Shown here: piece by piece, positions 25,688-44,500 of the stretch
Layout of the letters: every line of letters starts with the position of its first letter
How positions within the stretch are numbered: the first letter of the stretch is position 1
Origin: Candidatus Hadarchaeota archaeon
Lineage (GTDB): Archaea > Hadarchaeota > Hadarchaeia > Hadarchaeales > JAWBSP01
Direction of reading: 5' to 3'
NCBI GenBank assembly: GCA_964474885.1
Contig: CAYYWO010000001.1
Span: 1 to 51,379, forward strand
DNA length: 51,379 nucleotides
Made by a program: the position numbers and the translations under genes
The notes under the pieces: generated by a model
Databases searched by the model: none
Seen by the model: only the letters and a program-made list of their open reading frames with translations
What the model was told of the DNA's origin: nothing

Positions 25688-25762
25688 GGGCCCGTGATCC
25701 AGCCAGGACAGGATGCCCGGCTTCGGACCGGGTAGTCGTGGGTTCAAATCCCACCGGGCCCA
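25688..25762 (+). tRNA. tRNA-Arg (TCG)
   Basis: GGGCCCG acceptor; CCCGG-CTTCGGA-CCGGG anticodon arm; GTGGG-TTCAAAT-CCCAC T arm. Confidence 0.94.
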
Positions 25763-25765
25763 CTT

Positions 25766-25839
25766 GGGCCGGTAGTCTAGCCAGGACAGGACGCGGGCCT
25801 CCGGAGCCTGTAGCCCGGGTTCAAATCCCGGCCGGCCCG
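25766..25839 (+). tRNA. tRNA-Arg (CCG)
   Basis: GGGCCGG acceptor; CGGGC-CTCCGGA-GCCTG anticodon arm; CCGGG-TTCAAAT-CCCGG T arm; 3 nt after the first tRNA. Confidence 0.94.
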
Positions 25840-25857
25840 CTGGTCGGAACTGTTAAG

Positions 25858-29343: not shown

Positions 29344-29464
29344 GGGGCCGTGGTGTAGCTTGGTCTAGCACGGCGGGCTCCAGCGGAAGGGGTTAGCTGA
29401 GGCGATGATGAGCCGTTGGAGCCGAAGAAACCCGCAAACCCGGGTTCAAATCCTGGCGGCCCCA
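29344..29464 (+). tRNA. tRNA-Trp (CCA) with an intron at 37/38 (29384-29429)
   Basis: GGGGCCG acceptor; GCGGG-CT-CCA-G[intron]A-CCCGC anticodon arm; CCGGG-TTCAAAT-CCTGG T arm. Confidence 0.94.
29384..29429 (+). ncRNA. tRNA-Trp intron-encoded box C/D guide RNA
   Basis: D' CTGA and C' ATGATGA present. The GGGTT guide places its fifth nucleotide upstream of D' opposite C39. CCGTTGGAG is complementary to the anticodon loop. Confidence 0.75.
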
Positions 29465-39472: not shown

Positions 39473-40702
39473 GTGGTGGACCTGTTAATCAAGGACGCGC
39501 TGATATTAACTTTCGACCACAGCTTTAGCATCAGGAAGGGATCAATTGCCATTGAGGGAGGGAAAATCAAAAAAATCTCAAAGAATATGAGGAAAGGGGA
39601 TGCTGATGAAGTGATTAACGCCCGAGGAAAAGTGGTTATGCCCGCGATGATCCTCCCTTATTGCTCATTGCAAAATTGCTTGCTCGTCGGTAGGAGGTCA
39701 CCATCCTTCTGGAAGAGGGTGAACCAGAACCAGTTGCAGACTGCGGTGAGATGGGCCTGTCTCAGGCTTCTGCGCTCGGGTGTGGTTTTCGTGTCCAACG
39801 TCATACATACAGTGAAAAATGGCAATTTGTTCCAAACAGCTCAAGAAATGGAGGAAGCAGAAATGAGAGGTTTTTTAGCACTTGAACTCTCGGAGCATGG
39901 GAAGAGCGGATACAGAGCCCTCTCGGAAACTGAGAGGTTTTTAGAGAGAAACCCCTCAAAGAGAATCAAAGGTTTGGTCTGTGTCCATGCGTGCACCTCT
40001 GATGACATTTTGCAAGAGGCTCGTGAACTCGCTTCCTCTTTCCGCACGAAGCTATTGATTGTTATCTCGAGGGAGCTGGAGCACTTCTACTATGTCAGCA
40101 GGGAGTTTGGAACCTCGCCAATGGGGAGGATAATAAACGCTGGCTTGCTGGAACCGAATGCGATAGTGACGCATTACGTTCACCGTGTGCAGTGCACTGA
40201 ACTAGAGGAACTGCAAAAAAGTGGTGCAAAACTTGTCCACATTCTCCCCGATTCTGGTTATCTTGAGGATTTCTCCCCTGTTGAGGAGGCCCTGCACAAG
40301 AATATCACGAGCGGAATAGGAATGGAGAGGTTCATGGATGTCTTTGAACTGATGCGCAACTTCTTTTTTAGTTGCCAACAGAGAAAGATCACTTTGGAGC
40401 CGAAACATGTGTTGGCAATGTTTACCCGAATGCCAGCCGAAATGTATGGACTGAACTCTGGGTGTGTTGAGCAGGGAAGAGTGGCAGATCTGCTTGTTTT
40501 AGATCTCCCTGAGTTGAAAGGAGGCCTCATCTACGAGACAATTTTGACTGCTTGCACTTCTCACTTCATCAGCGCCGTTATTGCTGGGGGAAAGCTGATT
40601 GATGAGGAAAAGCTGAGATACAGGGAAAAAGAATTGAAAATGGAGTTTTATCGAGTTCTAAAAGATCTCTACAAAAAGGACATTAGGAACCCAGAATGGT
40701 GA
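39473..40702 (+). CDS. Amidohydrolase-family protein (SsnA/MtaD-like) with degenerate metal site
   Basis: N-terminal DLLIKDA..IAIEGGKI..INARGKVVMP and C-terminal GCVEQGRVADLLVLD. HxH and the catalytic Asp are absent. Confidence 0.8.
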   Translation: MVDLLIKDALILTFDHSFSIRKGSIAIEGGKIKKISKNMRKGDADEVINARGKVVMPAMILPYCSLQNCLLVGRRSPSFWKRVNQNQLQTAVRWACLRLLRSGVVFVSNVIHTVKNGNLFQTAQEMEEAEMRGFLALELSEHGKSGYRALSETERFLERNPSKRIKGLVCVHACTSDDILQEARELASSFRTKLLIVISRELEHFYYVSREFGTSPMGRIINAGLLEPNAIVTHYVHRVQCTELEELQKSGAKLVHILPDSGYLEDFSPVEEALHKNITSGIGMERFMDVFELMRNFFFSCQQRKITLEPKHVLAMFTRMPAEMYGLNSGCVEQGRVADLLVLDLPELKGGLIYETILTACTSHFISAVIAGGKLIDEEKLRYREKELKMEFYRVLKDLYKKDIRNPEW

Positions 40703-41769
40703 GGCTTTCTGTTGAAATAGCTGGACTGAGATTCAGAACACCTATTCTAACTGGTGCTGGGCCTGTGATTCGAGATTCTTCAAGCCTGCTGGTAGCTGCT
40801 GAGAACGGCATCGGAGGCCTCGTGACGGGCACCATCACGAGCAAGCCAAGTCCAGTCTACCCATATCTGTGTAAAGTTAGGGACTGTGTGTTGACAGCCA
40901 ACCTTGCTTCCCCTCTGTCCCCGGAAAGTTGGGAAAGAGAGATCCCAAGGGCCAAGAGGACGGGCCTACCGCTCATAGCTAACATAGGGTTCGACCTAGA
41001 GGACATCATTAACTTGGCTCCGCGTATGATAGAGGCGGGTGCTGATGGAATAGAGATAACTTTGAGGAGGAATTTAACTCTCCACAAGTTCAGGGAACTG
41101 GTCAAAGAGGCCAGGAAGGTGATATCCGAACCCCTCTTTGTAAAGTTGAACACGAGTATGCACCCCATAGCTGAGTTTGCAAAAGCAGCGGCGGAACAGG
41201 GGGTGGATGGCCTGACCGTCATAGATGCCGTGGGCCCTTGTACGCTCCTGAGGGACGATGGCACACCATTCCTAGGCAGCGAGGGGGGGATTGGTTGGTT
41301 GTGTGGTCCTGCGATCAAACCTATGGCACTTAGAGCGTTGGTGGAAGTAGCTGAGCAGGTTGAAATCCCCATCTTTGGTGCGGGAGGGGTCTTAGAGGGG
41401 AGGGATGTAGCCGAGTTCATAATGGCTGGGGCGTGGGCTGTGCAGGTCAATTCGGCTGTCATCTTGAGAGGGCCAAAAGTCTACGGGCAGCTCGTCAGAG
41501 AGTTTATGCAGTTCATGCAGATGAAAAACGTGGACGATGTCGGTAGCCTGAGGGGCGCAACTCTCAGGCGCTTGCCCAAGTCCCCCCTTACCACCCCCAA
41601 GGTACCCACGCTTTTGGCTTCCAAGTGCAATAACTGTGGCTTGTGTGCACGCTTCTGCTTCTATGATGCAATTCGGGTGGGTGGCAAGATGCCCAGAATC
41701 GAGCCCAACAAGTGCACGGGTTGCGGGCTTTGTGTTTCCGTTTGTCCGGCGGGGGCTTTGAGATTTTAA
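40696..41769 (+). CDS. Dihydroorotate/dihydropyrimidine dehydrogenase (PreA-like) with 2x[4Fe-4S] domain; degenerate active site
   Basis: PLFVKL, GPAIKPMAL, GAGGV, AGAWAVQV; CNNCGLCARFC and CTGCGLCVSVC. Confidence 0.82.
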   Translation: MVRLSVEIAGLRFRTPILTGAGPVIRDSSSLLVAAENGIGGLVTGTITSKPSPVYPYLCKVRDCVLTANLASPLSPESWEREIPRAKRTGLPLIANIGFDLEDIINLAPRMIEAGADGIEITLRRNLTLHKFRELVKEARKVISEPLFVKLNTSMHPIAEFAKAAAEQGVDGLTVIDAVGPCTLLRDDGTPFLGSEGGIGWLCGPAIKPMALRALVEVAEQVEIPIFGAGGVLEGRDVAEFIMAGAWAVQVNSAVILRGPKVYGQLVREFMQFMQMKNVDDVGSLRGATLRRLPKSPLTTPKVPTLLASKCNNCGLCARFCFYDAIRVGGKMPRIEPNKCTGCGLCVSVCPAGALRF

Positions 41770-41813
41770 AATAATGTGACAATCGTCACATATTCTCTGA
41801 CCAAGGAACTTGT

Positions 41814-41821
41814 CTTAAATG
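41814..41821 (+). promoter_or_regulatory. TATA-like box for the putative ncRNA
   Basis: CTTAAATG centred ~24 nt upstream of the predicted RNA 5' end at 41842. Confidence 0.5.
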
Positions 41822-41841
41822 GAAAGCTGAGAAAAATAGTC

Positions 41842-42073
41842 GGCGGGGACGGAAGCCCGGGGGTGTGGCCGAACCCGAGCCTACGGGCAAGGGGGAGCCG
41901 CCCAAAAACGGGGGCTAAAAACCCCGGACTGGGGCGGATAAGCGCCGGGAGGTTCGGCGCGAGGTCACAAACCCGGGAAAAAGACCCCGGACGTGAAAAA
42001 GCGAGGGTTGCAGGGGAGGTGGTCGAGATCCCCGGACCCTCGCCGAGTAGCGGAGGGGTCGAAGTCCCCGCCA
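41842..42073 (+). ncRNA. Unassigned highly structured ncRNA (~230 nt)
   Basis: 9-bp terminal helix GGCGGGGAC/GTCCCCGCC, about eight internal helices, cUACGg loop, upstream TATA-like box, T5 directly downstream. Confidence 0.75.
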
Positions 42074-42100
42074 TTTTTGTTATTCTTGGGAAGTTTAGGG

Positions 42101-44500
42101 ATGCGTGGGATTCTCTTAGATGTTTGTGACGAGGGCCGTAATATCGAGCTCTTCGTCAAAACCGAGAAGGGTATTGTCAAGGCAGTTGACGAGAACTTTT
42201 TTCCATGTTTTTATGTTCTCCCGAAAGAAGTGGACAGAGAGTTCAGGATTTTGAGGAAACTTGCACTTAAAGAAGGTAACAGGGAGATCCGTCCAGTTTC
42301 AGTTTCTCTCGAAAAGAAGTTTTTGAGGGGGAATCAGGTTGATGCTATCAGGATTGCGGTTGCCAAGCACTCCGACATAGACCCGCTCAGGCACTTCATA
42401 AGGGATGCTCTTCATCTGCAGTCGTTTGGGTATGACCTGCCGGTAGTCAGGAGATACTTTCTCACCCATCGACTGCTACCTTTCTGTGGTGTTTGCCTAG
42501 AGGGGGAGATCAAGGATAATGAGTTAAGGCTCACAAGGCCTCCGGAGCCCTTCGAAAGCAGGATGCCAGAACTTTCAGTGATGTCCTTTGATATAGAGGT
42601 CTACAATCCAGCCGGTACACCTCGACCGGATAAGGATCCTGTGATAATGATAAGCTTGGCGGATACGGGCGGCTTCCGAAAGGTGCTCACCTGGAAGAGT
42701 GTCCCTGGACTAGATTACGTTGAGGAAGTAGGTGGGGAGAGACAGATGCTGAGAAGGTTCGTGGAAATAGTCCAAGAGCGCGATCCGGACATCTTGGTGG
42801 GCTACAACACCGACCTCTTCGATTTTCCCTATCTCCGCAGCAGGGCGGAGCACTTGGGTGTTAAACTGAAGCTGGGTAGGGACGGATCCGAGCCAACCGC
42901 TAGAAGGAGGAGGTTTGCTTCGGCCACTCGTGTGAAGGGGAGAATACATTGTGATCTGTATGCTATGGTCAATTTTCTGGCGCTGACGGGCGGTATCCGG
43001 TTGATACACTACACCCTCGGGGATGTCTACAAGTATCTGCTTGGAAAAGAAAAACCAGACATCGAGTTCACGGAGATCGTCAGGTGCTGGGACGAAGGGG
43101 GGGAGGCCCTGAAGGAGTTGGCGGAATACTGCATGTCTGATGCGGCTGCTGCTCTAGAACTCTCCCAGGAGTTGTTGCCGCTTTTCATCGAGCTCGCGAG
43201 GATAATAGGCCAGAGCCTCTTCGACGTTGGCAGAATGACTCCAGGTCAAATGGTTGAGTGGCTTCTGATCCGCGAGGCGGAGGCAAGGCAAGAGCTCGTT
43301 CCTCCCAGACCTGTGGCTGAAGAACAGGAGGAGAGAGAAGAAGAGACGTACGCTGGTGCCTATGTCATGGAGCCAGAGCAAGGATTGCATGAGAACCTTG
43401 TGGTCTTCGACTTTCGGTCACTTTATCCTTCCATAATTATCACGCACAGGATAGATCCGTTCAACCTCAACTGTGAGTGCTGCAGGGACGGTGCCACCGT
43501 TGTCCCGGAGCTAGGCTACCATTTCTGCACCAAAAGAGAAGGATTCATAGCACCAGTCCTCAAGAGACTTGTCGAGGAGCGGATCAAGCTGAAAAGGGAA
43601 CTGAAAAAACTGGAGAAAAGCTCGGAGGAATACAAGAAGCTTTACGTCAGGCAGAATGCACTCAAGATAATCTCGAACAGCTTCTACGGTATGCTGGGCT
43701 TCTCCAAGGCTAGGTGGTACTCCAAGGAGTGTGCAGAGAGCATAACTGCATTCGGCCGGCACTATATTCAGAGGACGATTAAACTTGCGGAAGAGGACGG
43801 CTTCAAGGTGATCTATAGCGATACGGATTCACTTCACTGCAAGCTAGGCGCGAAGTCCAAGGAGGATGCGCTTAGATTGATAGAGAAGGTTAATCGGATT
43901 TTGCCGGGCTGTATTGAGCTGGAGCTGGAGGATTTCTATCCTAGGGGCATTTACATAACCAAGAAGAGGTACGCTTTGATCGACGAGAAGAACCGGATGA
44001 CGGTTAAAGGATTGGAATTCGTTAGGAGGGACTGGGCAGCCATTGCCAAGAAGACACAGGAGAAAGTTCTAAAGGCAATCCTAGTGGAGGGTTCCCCCAA
44101 GCAAGCTTTGGAAGCCGTTAGAAGGACGATCCAAGATCTCAGAGAGTACAAGGTCCCCCTAGAGGATCTGATCATTTACACTCAGCTCAAAATGTCACTG
44201 GAGGAGTACAAAGCCATCGGGCCGCACGTTTCGGTTGCCATGAAGCTCAAGCAAAGGGGGAGACCTGTGGAGCCGGGGATGATGATAGCGTATGTGGTAG
44301 CGAAAGGTCCGGGTAGCATAAGCGACAGGGCCTTTCCGGCGGATGAGTTCAAAAAGCAGAGGATGAAATACGATCCAGAATACTATATCGATCACCAAGT
44401 CCTTCCGGCTGTTATGAGGATAATGGAGGTTCTGGGATTCAGGGAAGAGGATCTCAAGGGCGGGGAAAAACAGGTAAGTTTAAGCAAGTTCTTTCAGTAG
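42101..44500 (+). CDS. polB: DNA polymerase family B
   Basis: FDIEV (ExoI), YNTDLFDF, DFRSLYPSII, KIISNSFYG, YSDTDS, KKRY. No intein. Confidence 0.96.
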   Translation: MRGILLDVCDEGRNIELFVKTEKGIVKAVDENFFPCFYVLPKEVDREFRILRKLALKEGNREIRPVSVSLEKKFLRGNQVDAIRIAVAKHSDIDPLRHFIRDALHLQSFGYDLPVVRRYFLTHRLLPFCGVCLEGEIKDNELRLTRPPEPFESRMPELSVMSFDIEVYNPAGTPRPDKDPVIMISLADTGGFRKVLTWKSVPGLDYVEEVGGERQMLRRFVEIVQERDPDILVGYNTDLFDFPYLRSRAEHLGVKLKLGRDGSEPTARRRRFASATRVKGRIHCDLYAMVNFLALTGGIRLIHYTLGDVYKYLLGKEKPDIEFTEIVRCWDEGGEALKELAEYCMSDAAAALELSQELLPLFIELARIIGQSLFDVGRMTPGQMVEWLLIREAEARQELVPPRPVAEEQEEREEETYAGAYVMEPEQGLHENLVVFDFRSLYPSIIITHRIDPFNLNCECCRDGATVVPELGYHFCTKREGFIAPVLKRLVEERIKLKRELKKLEKSSEEYKKLYVRQNALKIISNSFYGMLGFSKARWYSKECAESITAFGRHYIQRTIKLAEEDGFKVIYSDTDSLHCKLGAKSKEDALRLIEKVNRILPGCIELELEDFYPRGIYITKKRYALIDEKNRMTVKGLEFVRRDWAAIAKKTQEKVLKAILVEGSPKQALEAVRRTIQDLREYKVPLEDLIIYTQLKMSLEEYKAIGPHVSVAMKLKQRGRPVEPGMMIAYVVAKGPGSISDRAFPADEFKKQRMKYDPEYYIDHQVLPAVMRIMEVLGFREEDLKGGEKQVSLSKFFQ

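What the first reader, a model, noticed from the sequence alone, without database searches (positions are those of the whole stretch)
41842..42073. Unassigned ~230-nt multi-helix ncRNA with its own promoter and terminator, upstream of polB
Seen in sequence: a GC-rich island with A-rich linkers that folds almost completely. P1 is 41842-50/42064-72. P2 is CCCGGG-GG-UGUGGCC (41856-70) pairing with GGUCACA-AA-CCCGGG (41963-77), including tandem G.A pairs. P2 closes a junction of three arms: CCC-GA-GCC-UACG-GGC-AA-GGG; CCGCCC/GGGCGG with inner CGGGG/CCCCG; and GCGCCGGG/UUCGGCGC. A second domain has GACCCC/GGGGUC enclosing GCGAGGGU/ACCCUCGC and GGGGA/UCCCC. G.U pairs, the UNCG loop, a TATA-like box ~24 nt upstream and T5 right after the end all favour a + strand transcript. 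CCCCGGAC occurs three times (41922, 41985, 42030), and the RNA ends in GCCA. Established knowledge: RNase P (GAGGAAAGUC/ACAGAA) and SRP helix 8 signatures are absent. Inference: a new archaeal structured RNA class, or a cis-element controlling polB, which starts 28 nt downstream.
Basis: partly seen in the sequence, partly recalled or inferred. Interest (0 to 1): 0.85.

Follow-up and report, generated by a model that had tools for sequence, protein, structure and literature searches.

The report
New structured RNA family in Hadarchaeota
This is the gene for a tightly folded RNA of about 231 bases that matches no catalogued RNA family, is found only in the archaeal phylum Hadarchaeota (often in several copies per genome), and acts as a free-standing RNA of unknown job rather than as a switch for the neighbouring DNA polymerase gene.

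Summary
Covariation supports the fold: 40 of 62 pairs change on both sides in 44 genomic homologues, and 53 of 62 in 81 metagenomic ones. G-U outnumbers A-C 220 to 23, which fixes the + strand. No Rfam family matches. The same genome has RNase P, SRP and 5S RNAs elsewhere.

A covariance model finds the RNA in 51 of 66 Hadarchaeota genomes. A 42-nt core pattern hits only Hadarchaeota among 185,579 species genomes and no viral contig.

One family of genomes (f3) carries 2-6 paralogues. Each type sits in its own conserved gene context: before polB, before a convergent oxidoreductase gene, in tandem, or near glnA.

Nearly every copy has its own BRE/TATA box and T-run. It is therefore a stand-alone, trans-acting RNA, not a polB leader.

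The function is unknown. My best guess is a stable RNP or tertiary-fold RNA. No expression data were available.

The parts
41776..41795 (.). Possible transcription-factor site upstream of the promoter: inverted repeat GTGAC-AATC-GTCAC followed by ATAT. The two same-genus homologues carry CACATATGACA at the same place. Many f3 copies carry a GGAGATATCTCC-type palindrome there.
   Evidence: Sequence. Flanks of 85 distinct copies. A palindrome-like site lies at -75..-36 in 32 of 84 copies. That it binds a factor is inference.
41803..41821 (+). Archaeal promoter: purine/A-rich BRE region and a TATA-like box CTTAAATG (41814-41821). The box ends 20 nt before G1 of the RNA.
   Evidence: A TATA-like box lies at -40..-18 in 75 of 84 family members, against 1-2 of 80-83 at positions shifted by 150-450 nt.
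41842..42073 (+). The RNA gene: 232 nt, GC 0.69. P1 (41842-50 / 42064-72) closes a three-way junction that joins domain 1 and domain 2.
41856..41977 (+). Domain 1. P2 (41856-61 / 41972-77 and 41864-70 / 41963-69) closes a four-way junction. Its arms are P3 (41874-93, UACG loop), P4 (41898-903 / 41932-37 with inner 41909-13 / 41922-26 and A-rich loops) and P5 (41942-48 / 41954-60).
   Evidence: for coordinates. helices 2-6: 23 of 34 pairs change on both sides.
41983..42060 (+). Domain 2: P6 41983-88 / 42055-60, P7 41992-94 / 42050-52, P8 42001-09 / 42035-43, P9 42013-17 / 42029-33.
   Evidence: helices 7-10: 14 of 19 pairs change on both sides.
41989..41991 (+). 5' side (GGA) of a symmetric internal loop. 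It faces GA at 42053-54, which allows tandem sheared G.A/A.G pairs between P6 and P7.
   Evidence: A150 is invariant; G211, G212 and A213 are each present in at least 90% of sequences. The motif name is recalled, not tested.
41995..42000 (+). GAAAAA, the 5' strand of the P7/P8 internal loop. It faces CGAGUA at 42044-49. The pairing of AGUA with GAA resembles the sarcin-ricin / loop E (bulged-G) motif.
   Evidence: A155-A158, A205, U207 and A208 are invariant in 44 sequences. R-A-K-U-A-D is found in 92 of 104 T1-size and 43 of 44 shorter members. The motif consensus is recalled.
42018..42028 (+). Apical loop GGUGGUCGAGA of P9, the hallmark of the 231-nt subtype (T1). The shorter paralogues replace it with a short GNRA-type hairpin.
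   Evidence: UGGUCGA is invariant in A1. It is present in 100 of 104 T1-size members and 5 of 44 shorter ones. Subtype alignment.
42074..42078 (+). T5 run directly after the 3' A. It is an archaeal-type terminator signal, and it lies at -27..-23 of the polB ATG, where a TATA box for a leaderless polB mRNA would sit.
   Evidence: TTTT lies within 14 nt of the 3' end in 76 of 85 members, against 2-7 of 81 at shifted positions. The dual use as a polB TATA box is inference.
42101..44500 (+). polB (family B DNA polymerase, 799 aa), the conserved downstream neighbour of the T1a paralogue.
   Evidence: Pfam DNA_pol_B E = 5.7e-76. Synteny.

Best explanation
Window 41842-42073 (+) is the gene of a roughly 231-nt, independently transcribed, compactly folded non-coding RNA. 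It belongs to a previously uncatalogued family that I found only in Hadarchaeota.

Transcription (sequence evidence plus inference):
- Transcription starts at or next to G1, from a BRE/TATA promoter about 20-25 nt upstream.
- It stops in the T-run right after the closing helix P1.

Fold (shown by covariation):
- P1 closes a three-way junction.
- Domain 1 is a four-way junction with three hairpin arms and conserved A-rich loops.
- Domain 2 is a long arm with a tandem G.A loop, an AGUA/GAA (loop E-like) internal loop and an invariant apical loop, UGGUCGA.

Mode of action: the RNA acts in trans. Paralogues with the same core sit in unrelated, convergent gene contexts (shown).

Mechanism (inferred, not shown): it is a stable scaffold RNA whose conserved junctions and loops bind one or more proteins or another RNA. 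The paralogues T1, T2 and T3 share the core and swap the apical module, which would change partner specificity.

Adjacency to polB is best read as a shared or overlapping control region, with the RNA terminator and the polB promoter in the same 28-70 nt, not as the RNA's function.
For: Fold:
- z = -7.22.
- 44 homologues: 62 pairs, 97.3% of cells paired, 40 pairs with compensatory change against 12-20 for slid controls, 0 of 500 shuffles as good.
- Independent metagenome set of 81 distinct sequences: 53 of 62 pairs, 96.2% paired.
- The 21 highest mutual-information column pairs all lie in the proposed structure.

Strand and non-coding nature:
- G-U 220 against A-C 23, out of 2714 cells.
- Lengths of 227-233 nt; no reading frame is kept open across homologues.

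Own transcription unit: TATA-like box in 75 of 84 copies and T-run in 76 of 85, against at most 2 and at most 7 at shifted control positions.

Not a known RNA:
- Rfam gives no hit.
- RNase P (216 bits), SRP (163 bits) and 5S (97 bits) are elsewhere in the genome.
- The family model finds nothing significant in those three loci.

Distribution:
- 51 of 66 genomes of the phylum.
- The core pattern gives 66 stretches in 185,579 species genomes, all Hadarchaeota.
- 0 in viral contigs.
- At least 120 metagenome stretches; all 80 that I examined hold a member.

Trans action:
- T1b copies are followed by a convergent FAD-oxidoreductase gene 5-14 nt after the RNA end.
- T2 lies in tandem upstream of T1b, and T1b keeps its own promoter in the spacer.
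- T3 lies next to glnA, gdh or AOR genes.
- Paralogue clades follow gene context.
Against: - There are no expression data. No RNA run holds the stretch, so the transcript, its ends and its abundance are inferred from sequence signals only.
- No partner protein was found. The neighbouring genes are unrelated housekeeping genes.
- The RNA was not found in some near-complete genomes: G008 (95% complete, 9 contigs), G018 (90%, 10 contigs), G012, G029 and G065, none at E <= 1. It is therefore not indispensable to every Hadarchaeon.
- In this genome, as in both other f1 genomes and the one f2 genome checked with the broader model, there is a single copy. It always lies 28-46 nt before polB, so a second, cis role there cannot be excluded.
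- The scaffold/RNP mechanism is a default inference from architecture and is not tested.
Confidence: 0.6

Rival explanations
1. The RNA is a ribozyme or an RNA-only machine. Its many invariant unpaired nucleotides and two multi-helix junctions would build an active site or a self-assembling architecture, as in the large ornate bacterial RNAs, rather than a protein-binding scaffold.
For: - 64 invariant columns in 44 sequences, many of them in junctions and loops.
- Four conserved GAAAA-type A-rich segments, of the kind that usually make A-minor contacts.
- GNRA-type loops replace the apical loop in T2 and T3.
- The invariant loop holds the self-complementary UCGA.
- No conserved protein neighbour.
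Against: - No match to any ribozyme family in Rfam.
- No long-range or pseudoknot covariation was found beyond the nested structure.
- A 4-nt palindrome is weak evidence for dimerisation.
- Nothing here tests catalysis.
Confidence: 0.15
2. The RNA is a cis-acting leader or regulator of polB. It would be the 5' part of the polB transcript (riboswitch, attenuator or thermosensor), or its transcription would modulate the polB promoter that overlaps its terminator.
For: - The RNA lies 28-70 nt upstream of polB on the same strand in f1, f2 and many f3 genomes. 19 of 85 distinct copies have polB within 1.8 kb downstream.
- In genomes of genus g6 that lack the RNA, a different structured element with a very similar GC-rich terminal stem occupies the same spot.
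- The T-run lies where a TATA box for a leaderless polB mRNA would be.
Against: - 22 T1-size copies with the same core and loops are followed by a convergent gene.
- In genus g8 an opposite-strand HAD gene separates the RNA from polB by about 950 nt.
- Every copy ends in a terminator-like T-run.
- Spacer length and sequence are not conserved.
Confidence: 0.08
3. The RNA binds tRNA or CCA ends in trans. The invariant loop UGGU would pair with the 3' ACCA of tRNAs, as the T-box bulge and RNase P L15 do. The loop E-like and G.A modules resemble T-box stem I elements.
For: - UGGUCGA is invariant in the T1 loop (100 of 104).
- The AGUA/GAA internal loop and the tandem G.A loop are conserved.
- The parallels with T-box and RNase P are recalled, not tested.
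Against: - T2 and T3 paralogues lack the loop yet keep the core.
- No codon-like covarying triplet was seen.
- No T-box or RNase P similarity by Rfam or by the family model.
- A four-base complementarity is expected by chance.
Confidence: 0.05
4. It is not a functional RNA: a repeat or mobile element, a DNA-level signal, or a short protein-coding gene (ORFs 41776-42129 + and 41766-42074 - overlap it).
For: - It is multi-copy in f3 genomes.
- Overlapping ORFs are listed.
- Contigs often break inside it.
Against: - Paralogues keep fixed syntenic positions across genera.
- Compensatory changes occur in 40-53 of 62 pairs.
- The G-U against A-C asymmetry shows selection on the RNA.
- Lengths differ by 1-2 nt, and no frame stays open across homologues.
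Confidence: 0.01

Closest known systems
Large 'ornate' orphan ncRNAs found by comparative genomics in bacteria (OLE, GOLLD, ROOL, raiA, HEARO)
   Same: A long, multi-junction, highly conserved fold. Lineage-restricted, with its own transcription signals. Discovered from sequence, with the function initially unknown.
   Different: Those are bacterial, and at least some are much larger (OLE is about 600 nt in the abstract start seen; the rest is recalled). None matches here by Rfam. This family is archaeal, about 200-233 nt, and has 1-6 syntenic paralogues per genome.
Archaeal RNase P RNA (RF00373) and SRP RNA (RF01857)
   Same: Stable, GC-rich, multi-domain archaeal RNAs. A terminal helix pairs the 5' and 3' ends. 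The genes stand alone.
   Different: Both are present elsewhere in this genome. There is no Rfam match at the candidate. The family model does not match those loci.
5S rRNA (RF00001)
   Same: A closing helix of about 9 bp, a three-way junction, and an arm with a loop E-type AGUA/GAA internal loop. Short strings such as CCGAAC, GAAGUG and GAGUAG recall 5S motifs (recalled).
   Different: A normal 120-nt 5S gene exists in this genome and in 5 of 5 relatives checked, including two that lack this RNA. The candidate is twice as long, the motifs come in a different order, and Rfam's 5S model does not hit it.
Paralogous protein-binding RNAs (Y RNAs, vault RNAs, 6S-1/6S-2, GlmY/GlmZ)
   Same: Several paralogues per genome share a conserved terminal stem and core but differ in one module. 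They act in trans.
   Different: No Ro, vault or RNA-polymerase-type partner was identified or tested. The architecture is unlike any of them. The resemblance is functional analogy only (recalled).
High-GC RNA genes of AT-rich hyperthermophiles (HgcC/E/F/G; Klein, Misulovin and Eddy 2002, recalled, not read here)
   Same: It stands out as a GC-rich island (0.69) in a genome of lower GC (0.52). It is an orphan archaeal RNA.
   Different: The Hgc families are in Rfam (as I recall), and nothing in Rfam matches here.

Membership tests
Any Rfam 15 family (4227 models) | Score at or above the family's gathering threshold | tested here: not met
   4 hits in the window, all tRNA, none at 41842-42073; best permissive hits score 13.8-18.7 bits, with E from 0.61 to 9.3, far below gathering; 0 hits at E <= 0.05 in six loci holding the T1, T2, T3 and g6-variant forms.
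Archaeal RNase P RNA | Match to RF00373 (or the type T model), and being the genome's only such gene | tested here: not met
   The genome's RNase P RNA is at G000:C9:2628-2910 (216 bits). The candidate gives no hit.
Archaeal SRP RNA | Match to RF01857 | tested here: not met
   SRP RNA is at G000:C6:23492-23802 (163.3 bits). The candidate gives no hit.
5S rRNA | Match to RF00001; about 120 nt | tested here: not met
   5S is at G000:C11:9239-9359 (97 bits). It is also present in 5 of 5 relatives checked. The candidate is 232 nt and gives no hit.
tRNA / tmRNA | Cloverleaf with a T-arm next to the acceptor 3' strand; for tmRNA also a tag reading frame | tested here: not met
   ARAGORN finds 3 tRNAs and no tmRNA in the window, none at this place. 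Covariation supports P1 (9 bp) and P6, not a T-arm hairpin.
Cis-regulatory leader / riboswitch | Always lies in the 5' UTR of the regulated gene, on the same strand | tested here: not met
   22 T1-size and 9 T2 copies are followed by a convergent gene. 76 of 85 copies end in a T-run.
Cis-regulatory leader / riboswitch | Ligand- or signal-dependent switch between alternative folds | not testable with these tools
   No alternative conserved pairing appeared in the mutual-information scan. Biochemistry is needed.
Stand-alone structured ncRNA gene (generic) | Conserved secondary structure with compensatory changes | tested here: met
   40 of 62 pairs; 53 of 62.
Stand-alone structured ncRNA gene (generic) | Own promoter and terminator | tested here: met
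   TATA-like box in 75 of 84 copies and T-run in 76 of 85, against at most 2 and at most 7 in shifted controls. This is sequence signals only.
Stand-alone structured ncRNA gene (generic) | A discrete transcript is observed | not testable with these tools
   No RNA run holds the stretch.
K-turn / L7Ae-binding RNAs | A 3-nt bulge followed by tandem G.A/A.G pairs | tested here: not met
   By eye on the alignment: the tandem G.A loop between P6 and P7 is roughly symmetric in the consensus (3 x 3, or 3 x 2 in this copy) and has no one-sided 3-nt bulge. The motif definition is recalled.

The most novel reading that the evidence does not exclude
This is the RNA core of an undescribed, phylum-specific ribonucleoprotein or ribozyme. 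It would be a further large 'machine' RNA of an archaeal lineage, beside rRNA, RNase P RNA and SRP RNA. Paralogues T1, T2 and T3 would give alternative versions of the machine, as P and MRP do. A dedicated transcription factor would control it, and it may be coupled to DNA replication through its conserved link to polB.
Probability: 0.2. Interest if true: 0.9.

Novelty: categorically new. Interest (0 to 1): 0.78.

Why it matters
As far as I recall, archaea have very few known large structured RNAs beyond rRNA, tRNA, RNase P RNA and SRP RNA.

Here is an RNA of about 231 nt with ten covariation-supported helices and two multi-helix junctions. Dozens of its unpaired nucleotides are invariant, and it is conserved across most of an uncultured phylum. 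It has duplicated into syntenic paralogues and carries near-consensus promoters plus, at many copies, a palindromic upstream site.

RNAs with this degree of conservation have usually turned out to be ribozymes, RNP cores or sensors.

The alignments, two covariance models and 148 distinct sequences make the family directly testable by structure probing, cryo-EM, pull-downs and metatranscriptome mapping. The family also gives a new marker for Hadarchaeota.

Caveat: the function is unknown. 'New' here means a new family, not a proven new mechanism.

Tried and rejected
Explanations tested and rejected:
- RNase P, SRP, 5S, tRNA or tmRNA identity. Bona fide genes lie elsewhere and no model matches the candidate.
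- The triple CCCCGGAC as a functional repeat. It is real in the window but not conserved.
- An mRNA target for the invariant loop. Its complement TCTCGACCAC is over-represented in the window: 13 hits against 3.7 expected. However, 9 of the 12 sites outside the RNA are in-frame GTG-GTC-GAG codons on the coding strand. That is codon usage, not a target.
- A wider regulon for the promoter palindrome. The pattern GRARATAKHTCYAYTT gave 5 hits in 5 f3 genomes. Four lie upstream of T1 RNA genes and one lies between convergent ORFs with no TATA box. A stricter pattern gave 1 hit. The 5S, RNase P and SRP promoters lack it.
- Extra copies in f1 and f2. The weak model hits in G003 (16 bits) look like purine-rich coding sequence by eye.
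- Pseudoknots. No convincing long-range covariation was seen.
- Coding potential.
- Viral carriage. 0 hits in viral contigs.

Steps that gave nothing usable:
- Expression: no RNA holder was listed for the stretch.
- A GC-island scan of the genome was uninformative and its output was cut.
- Papers: I saw only search listings and abstract starts and read no paper. 0 papers hold Hadarchaeota together with 'structured RNA' or 'ncRNA'. The 4 papers that hold Hadesarchaea together with 'noncoding RNA' are on other subjects, judging by their titles. Supplements were not consulted.
- Homologues outside the phylum could be sought only by an exact 42-nt degenerate pattern. Divergent relatives elsewhere cannot be excluded.

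Full report
**1. The observation**

Window 41842-42073 (+) is a GC-rich island. Its GC is 0.69, against 0.52 for the genome. It lies between a DHO_dh/4Fe-4S gene (40696-41769) and polB (42101-44500; Pfam DNA_pol_B E = 5.7e-76).

The fold:
- The + strand folds to -139.4 kcal/mol. 200 dinucleotide shuffles give -102.6 +/- 5.1, so z = -7.22 and none fold as well.
- The minus strand gives z = -5.51.
- It adds one 3-bp helix, CGU/GCG at 41992-94 / 42050-52.

The other details are also as stated: CCCCGGAC three times, the UACG loop, the TATA-like box CTTAAATG at 41814-21, T5 at 42074-78, the 3' GCCA, and the 28-nt gap to polB.

**2. It is none of the known RNAs**

- Rfam at gathering thresholds finds only four tRNAs in the window.
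- A permissive scan of 41700-42200 gives only noise, 13.8-18.7 bits.
- ARAGORN finds no tRNA or tmRNA there.
- The same genome (G000, 1.18 Mb, 60 contigs, 92% complete) encodes these RNAs elsewhere:
  - RNase P RNA at C9:2628-2910 (216 bits).
  - SRP RNA at C6:23492-23802 (163 bits).
  - 5S rRNA at C11:9239-9359 (97 bits).
- The family model built here scores at most about 10 bits anywhere in those loci, in a 26-nt hairpin outside the SRP gene.

**3. Homologues and structure**

Finding homologues:
- BLAST of the 232 nt against 61 related genomes found matches in 40 of them. Most span the full length at 69-88% identity.
- I aligned 44 full-length homologues (A1). Mean column identity is 81%, and 64 columns are invariant.
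- The ends are sharp: GGCGGGG at the 5' end and CCCCGCC(A) at the 3' end.

Support for the fold:
- RNAalifold predicts 60 pairs, 39 of them with compensatory changes.
- With P1 extended to 9 bp, I counted 62 pairs.
  - 97.3% of cells are paired.
  - 40 pairs change on both sides, against 12-20 when partners are slid by 1-3 columns.
  - The covariation score is 0.439, against 0.06-0.09 for the slid controls.
  - 0 of 500 shuffles reach any measure.
- In a wider alignment of 85 distinct members, the 21 highest mutual-information column pairs all belong to this structure.
- A separate set from metagenomes has 81 distinct sequences. It was aligned by the model, so it leans towards the model's structure. 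It gives 53 of 62 pairs with compensatory change and 96.2% paired.

Strand and coding:
- G-U pairs outnumber A-C 220 to 23. The + strand is therefore the RNA.
- Lengths of 227-233 nt and shifting open frames exclude a protein gene.

Architecture (window coordinates in the parts list):
- P1 closes a three-way junction.
- Domain 1 is P2 closing a four-way junction with arms P3, P4 and P5.
- Domain 2 is P6, a tandem G.A loop, P7, an AGUA/GAA internal loop, P8, P9 and the apical loop.
- The names 'tandem sheared G.A' and 'loop E / sarcin-ricin-like' rest on recalled consensus, not on a test.

**4. Distribution**

- Covariance model R1 finds the RNA in 51 of 65 genomes of the class and 51 of 66 of the phylum.
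- By family, not counting G000: f1 2 of 2, f2 6 of 6, f3 40 of 46, f4 1 of 1, f5 1 of 9, f6 0 of 1.
- Five negative genomes of at least 90% completeness were searched again with laxer filters. None gave a hit at E <= 1.
- A 42-nt degenerate core pattern matches 58 of 73 distinct members. Results by collection:
  - Species genomes (185,579): 66 stretches, and 64 carry Hadarchaeota, Hadesarchaea or Hodarchaeaceae labels.
  - Viral contigs: nothing.
- All 80 metagenome loci that I examined hold a family member, 87 matches in all.
- In total there are 148 distinct sequences: 104 of T1 size and 44 shorter.

**5. Paralogues and contexts**

Copy number: in f1 (all three genomes) and in the f2 genome checked with the broader model (G003) there is a single copy. 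Genomes of f3 have 2-6 matches.

Alignment and a tree separate the following types:
- T1a (about 231 nt) lies directly upstream of polB on the same strand. 19 of 85 distinct copies have polB within 1.8 kb downstream. In genus g8 an opposite-strand HAD hydrolase gene lies between the RNA and polB.
- T1b (about 232 nt) lies between a divergent DRG-type GTPase gene and a convergent FAD-oxidoreductase gene. That gene's 3' end is 5-14 nt from the RNA end. There are 22 such copies.
- T1c is a group from genus g10 in a third context.
- T2 (about 204 nt) lies in tandem about 85-90 nt upstream of T1b. A short GNRA-type hairpin replaces the T1 apical loop.
- T3 (about 200-212 nt) lies beside glnA, gdh, AOR or cation-efflux genes.

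Sources for these contexts are. All types keep the core. UGGUCGA is T1-specific, in 100 of 104 T1-size members against 5 of 44 shorter ones. The neighbouring genes share no theme, although AOR genes recur.

**6. Transcription signals**

- A TATA-like box lies at -40..-18 in 75 of 84 copies, usually behind an A-rich BRE. At positions shifted by 150-450 nt it appears in 1-2 of 80-83.
- TTTT follows within 14 nt of the 3' end in 76 of 85 copies, against 2-7 of 81 at shifted positions.
- The tandem T2-T1b spacer holds a T-run and then a full promoter. The two RNAs are therefore separate units.
- A palindrome-like site lies just upstream of the promoter in 32 of 84 copies (mostly GGAGATATCTCC-like; my search pattern also admitted the f1 and f2 variants).
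- In five f3 genomes a strict version of this motif occurs five times, four of them at T1 RNA genes. It is absent from the 5S, RNase P and SRP promoters. I infer a dedicated regulator.

**7. What it does**

Shown:
- A conserved, strand-specific, elaborate fold.
- Transcription signals of its own.
- Vertical inheritance in fixed positions.
- Paralogues whose downstream gene is convergent.

It follows that the RNA acts in trans and is not a polB leader.

Not shown: expression, because no RNA run holds the stretch, and any partner or activity.

My best inference, at about 0.45 for the mechanism itself, is a stable RNP or tertiary-fold scaffold RNA. Its core is shared by the paralogues and its apical module sets specificity.

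Rivals: ribozyme or RNA-only assembly (0.15), cis control of polB (0.08), tRNA or CCA-end binding (0.05), and artefact (0.01).

The polB link is conserved and unexplained. The terminator T-run sits where the TATA box of a leaderless polB mRNA would be. The two genes may therefore simply share control DNA.

In genomes of genus g6 that lack the family, a different structured element occupies the same spot before polB. It is 192 nt in one genome and 148 nt in the other. It is closed by a very similar GC-rich terminal stem, GGCGGAGGCG.../GGCGGGGAGG.... The family model does not match it beyond that stem.

**8. Novelty**

- No Rfam family matches.
- Four literature searches gave nothing on ncRNAs of this phylum. 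I saw listings only and read no paper.

I therefore rate it a new RNA family. Its function is unknown. Relatives outside the phylum could be sought only by an exact pattern.

Noticed in passing
L157 (reverse complement 1272-1463) and L158 (1318-1465), upstream of polB in two g6 genomes: Genomes that lack the family still carry a different structured element at the same spot before polB. It is 192 nt in one and 148 nt in the other. It is closed by a very similar 10-bp GC-rich terminal stem (GGCGGAGGCG.../GGCGGGGAGG...). The 148-nt form has an internal T7 run and an AT-rich interior, so it may be degenerate.
   Followed up: partly
L157 (reverse complement from 1139) and L158 (from 1202), about 110-130 nt upstream of those elements: A conserved element of about 70 nt (GGGGYGRY..CCAAGCUGGCUGGGAC..GGAUGARCAGCU..CCCC) closed by an 8-12 bp stem. 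It has no Rfam hit at E <= 0.05. It may be another small RNA.
   Followed up: no
Upstream of many T1 copies (about -60..-47); window 41776-41795 for the local variant: A palindrome, GGAGATATCTCC / GGAAATATYTCC, lies just upstream of the BRE/TATA of T1 RNA genes. In five f3 genomes it is almost confined to these genes (4 of 5 strict matches). The variants are GGAATATCCCA in f2 and CACATATGACA in f1.
   Followed up: partly
window 29344-29464 (+): Rfam calls a tRNA of 121 nt (48 bits) that ARAGORN does not report. It is probably an intron-containing tRNA gene.
   Followed up: no
window 25688-25840 (+): Two tRNA-Arg genes (anticodons TCG and CCG) lie head to tail, 2 nt apart.
   Followed up: no
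Metagenome loci L173, L180, L188, L200, L202, L206, L224, L232 and L237: Many contigs end inside the RNA. This fits assembly breaks at a multi-copy sequence, and it means copy numbers in MAGs are probably undercounted.
   Followed up: no
Loci (e.g. L013, L131, L090, L146, L099, L072, L105, L149): Aldehyde:ferredoxin oxidoreductase (AOR) genes lie next to RNA copies of several subtypes: 13 of 85 contexts within 1.8 kb. This could be segmental duplication of an AOR-RNA module, or chance in genomes with many AOR genes.
   Followed up: no
window-wide: The 10-mer TCTCGACCAC with at most 1 mismatch occurs 13 times against 3.7 expected. In-frame GTG-GTC-GAG (Val-Val-Glu) codons on coding strands explain this.
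   Followed up: yes
L054, L058, L028 and L051; L065 and L042: In g8 genomes the polB gene about 1 kb downstream of T1a matches the window's PolB at only about 30% identity over the first 150 residues that lie in the short loci. In the longer loci it matches at 59%. The weak hit is probably an effect of the locus ending early.
   Followed up: partly
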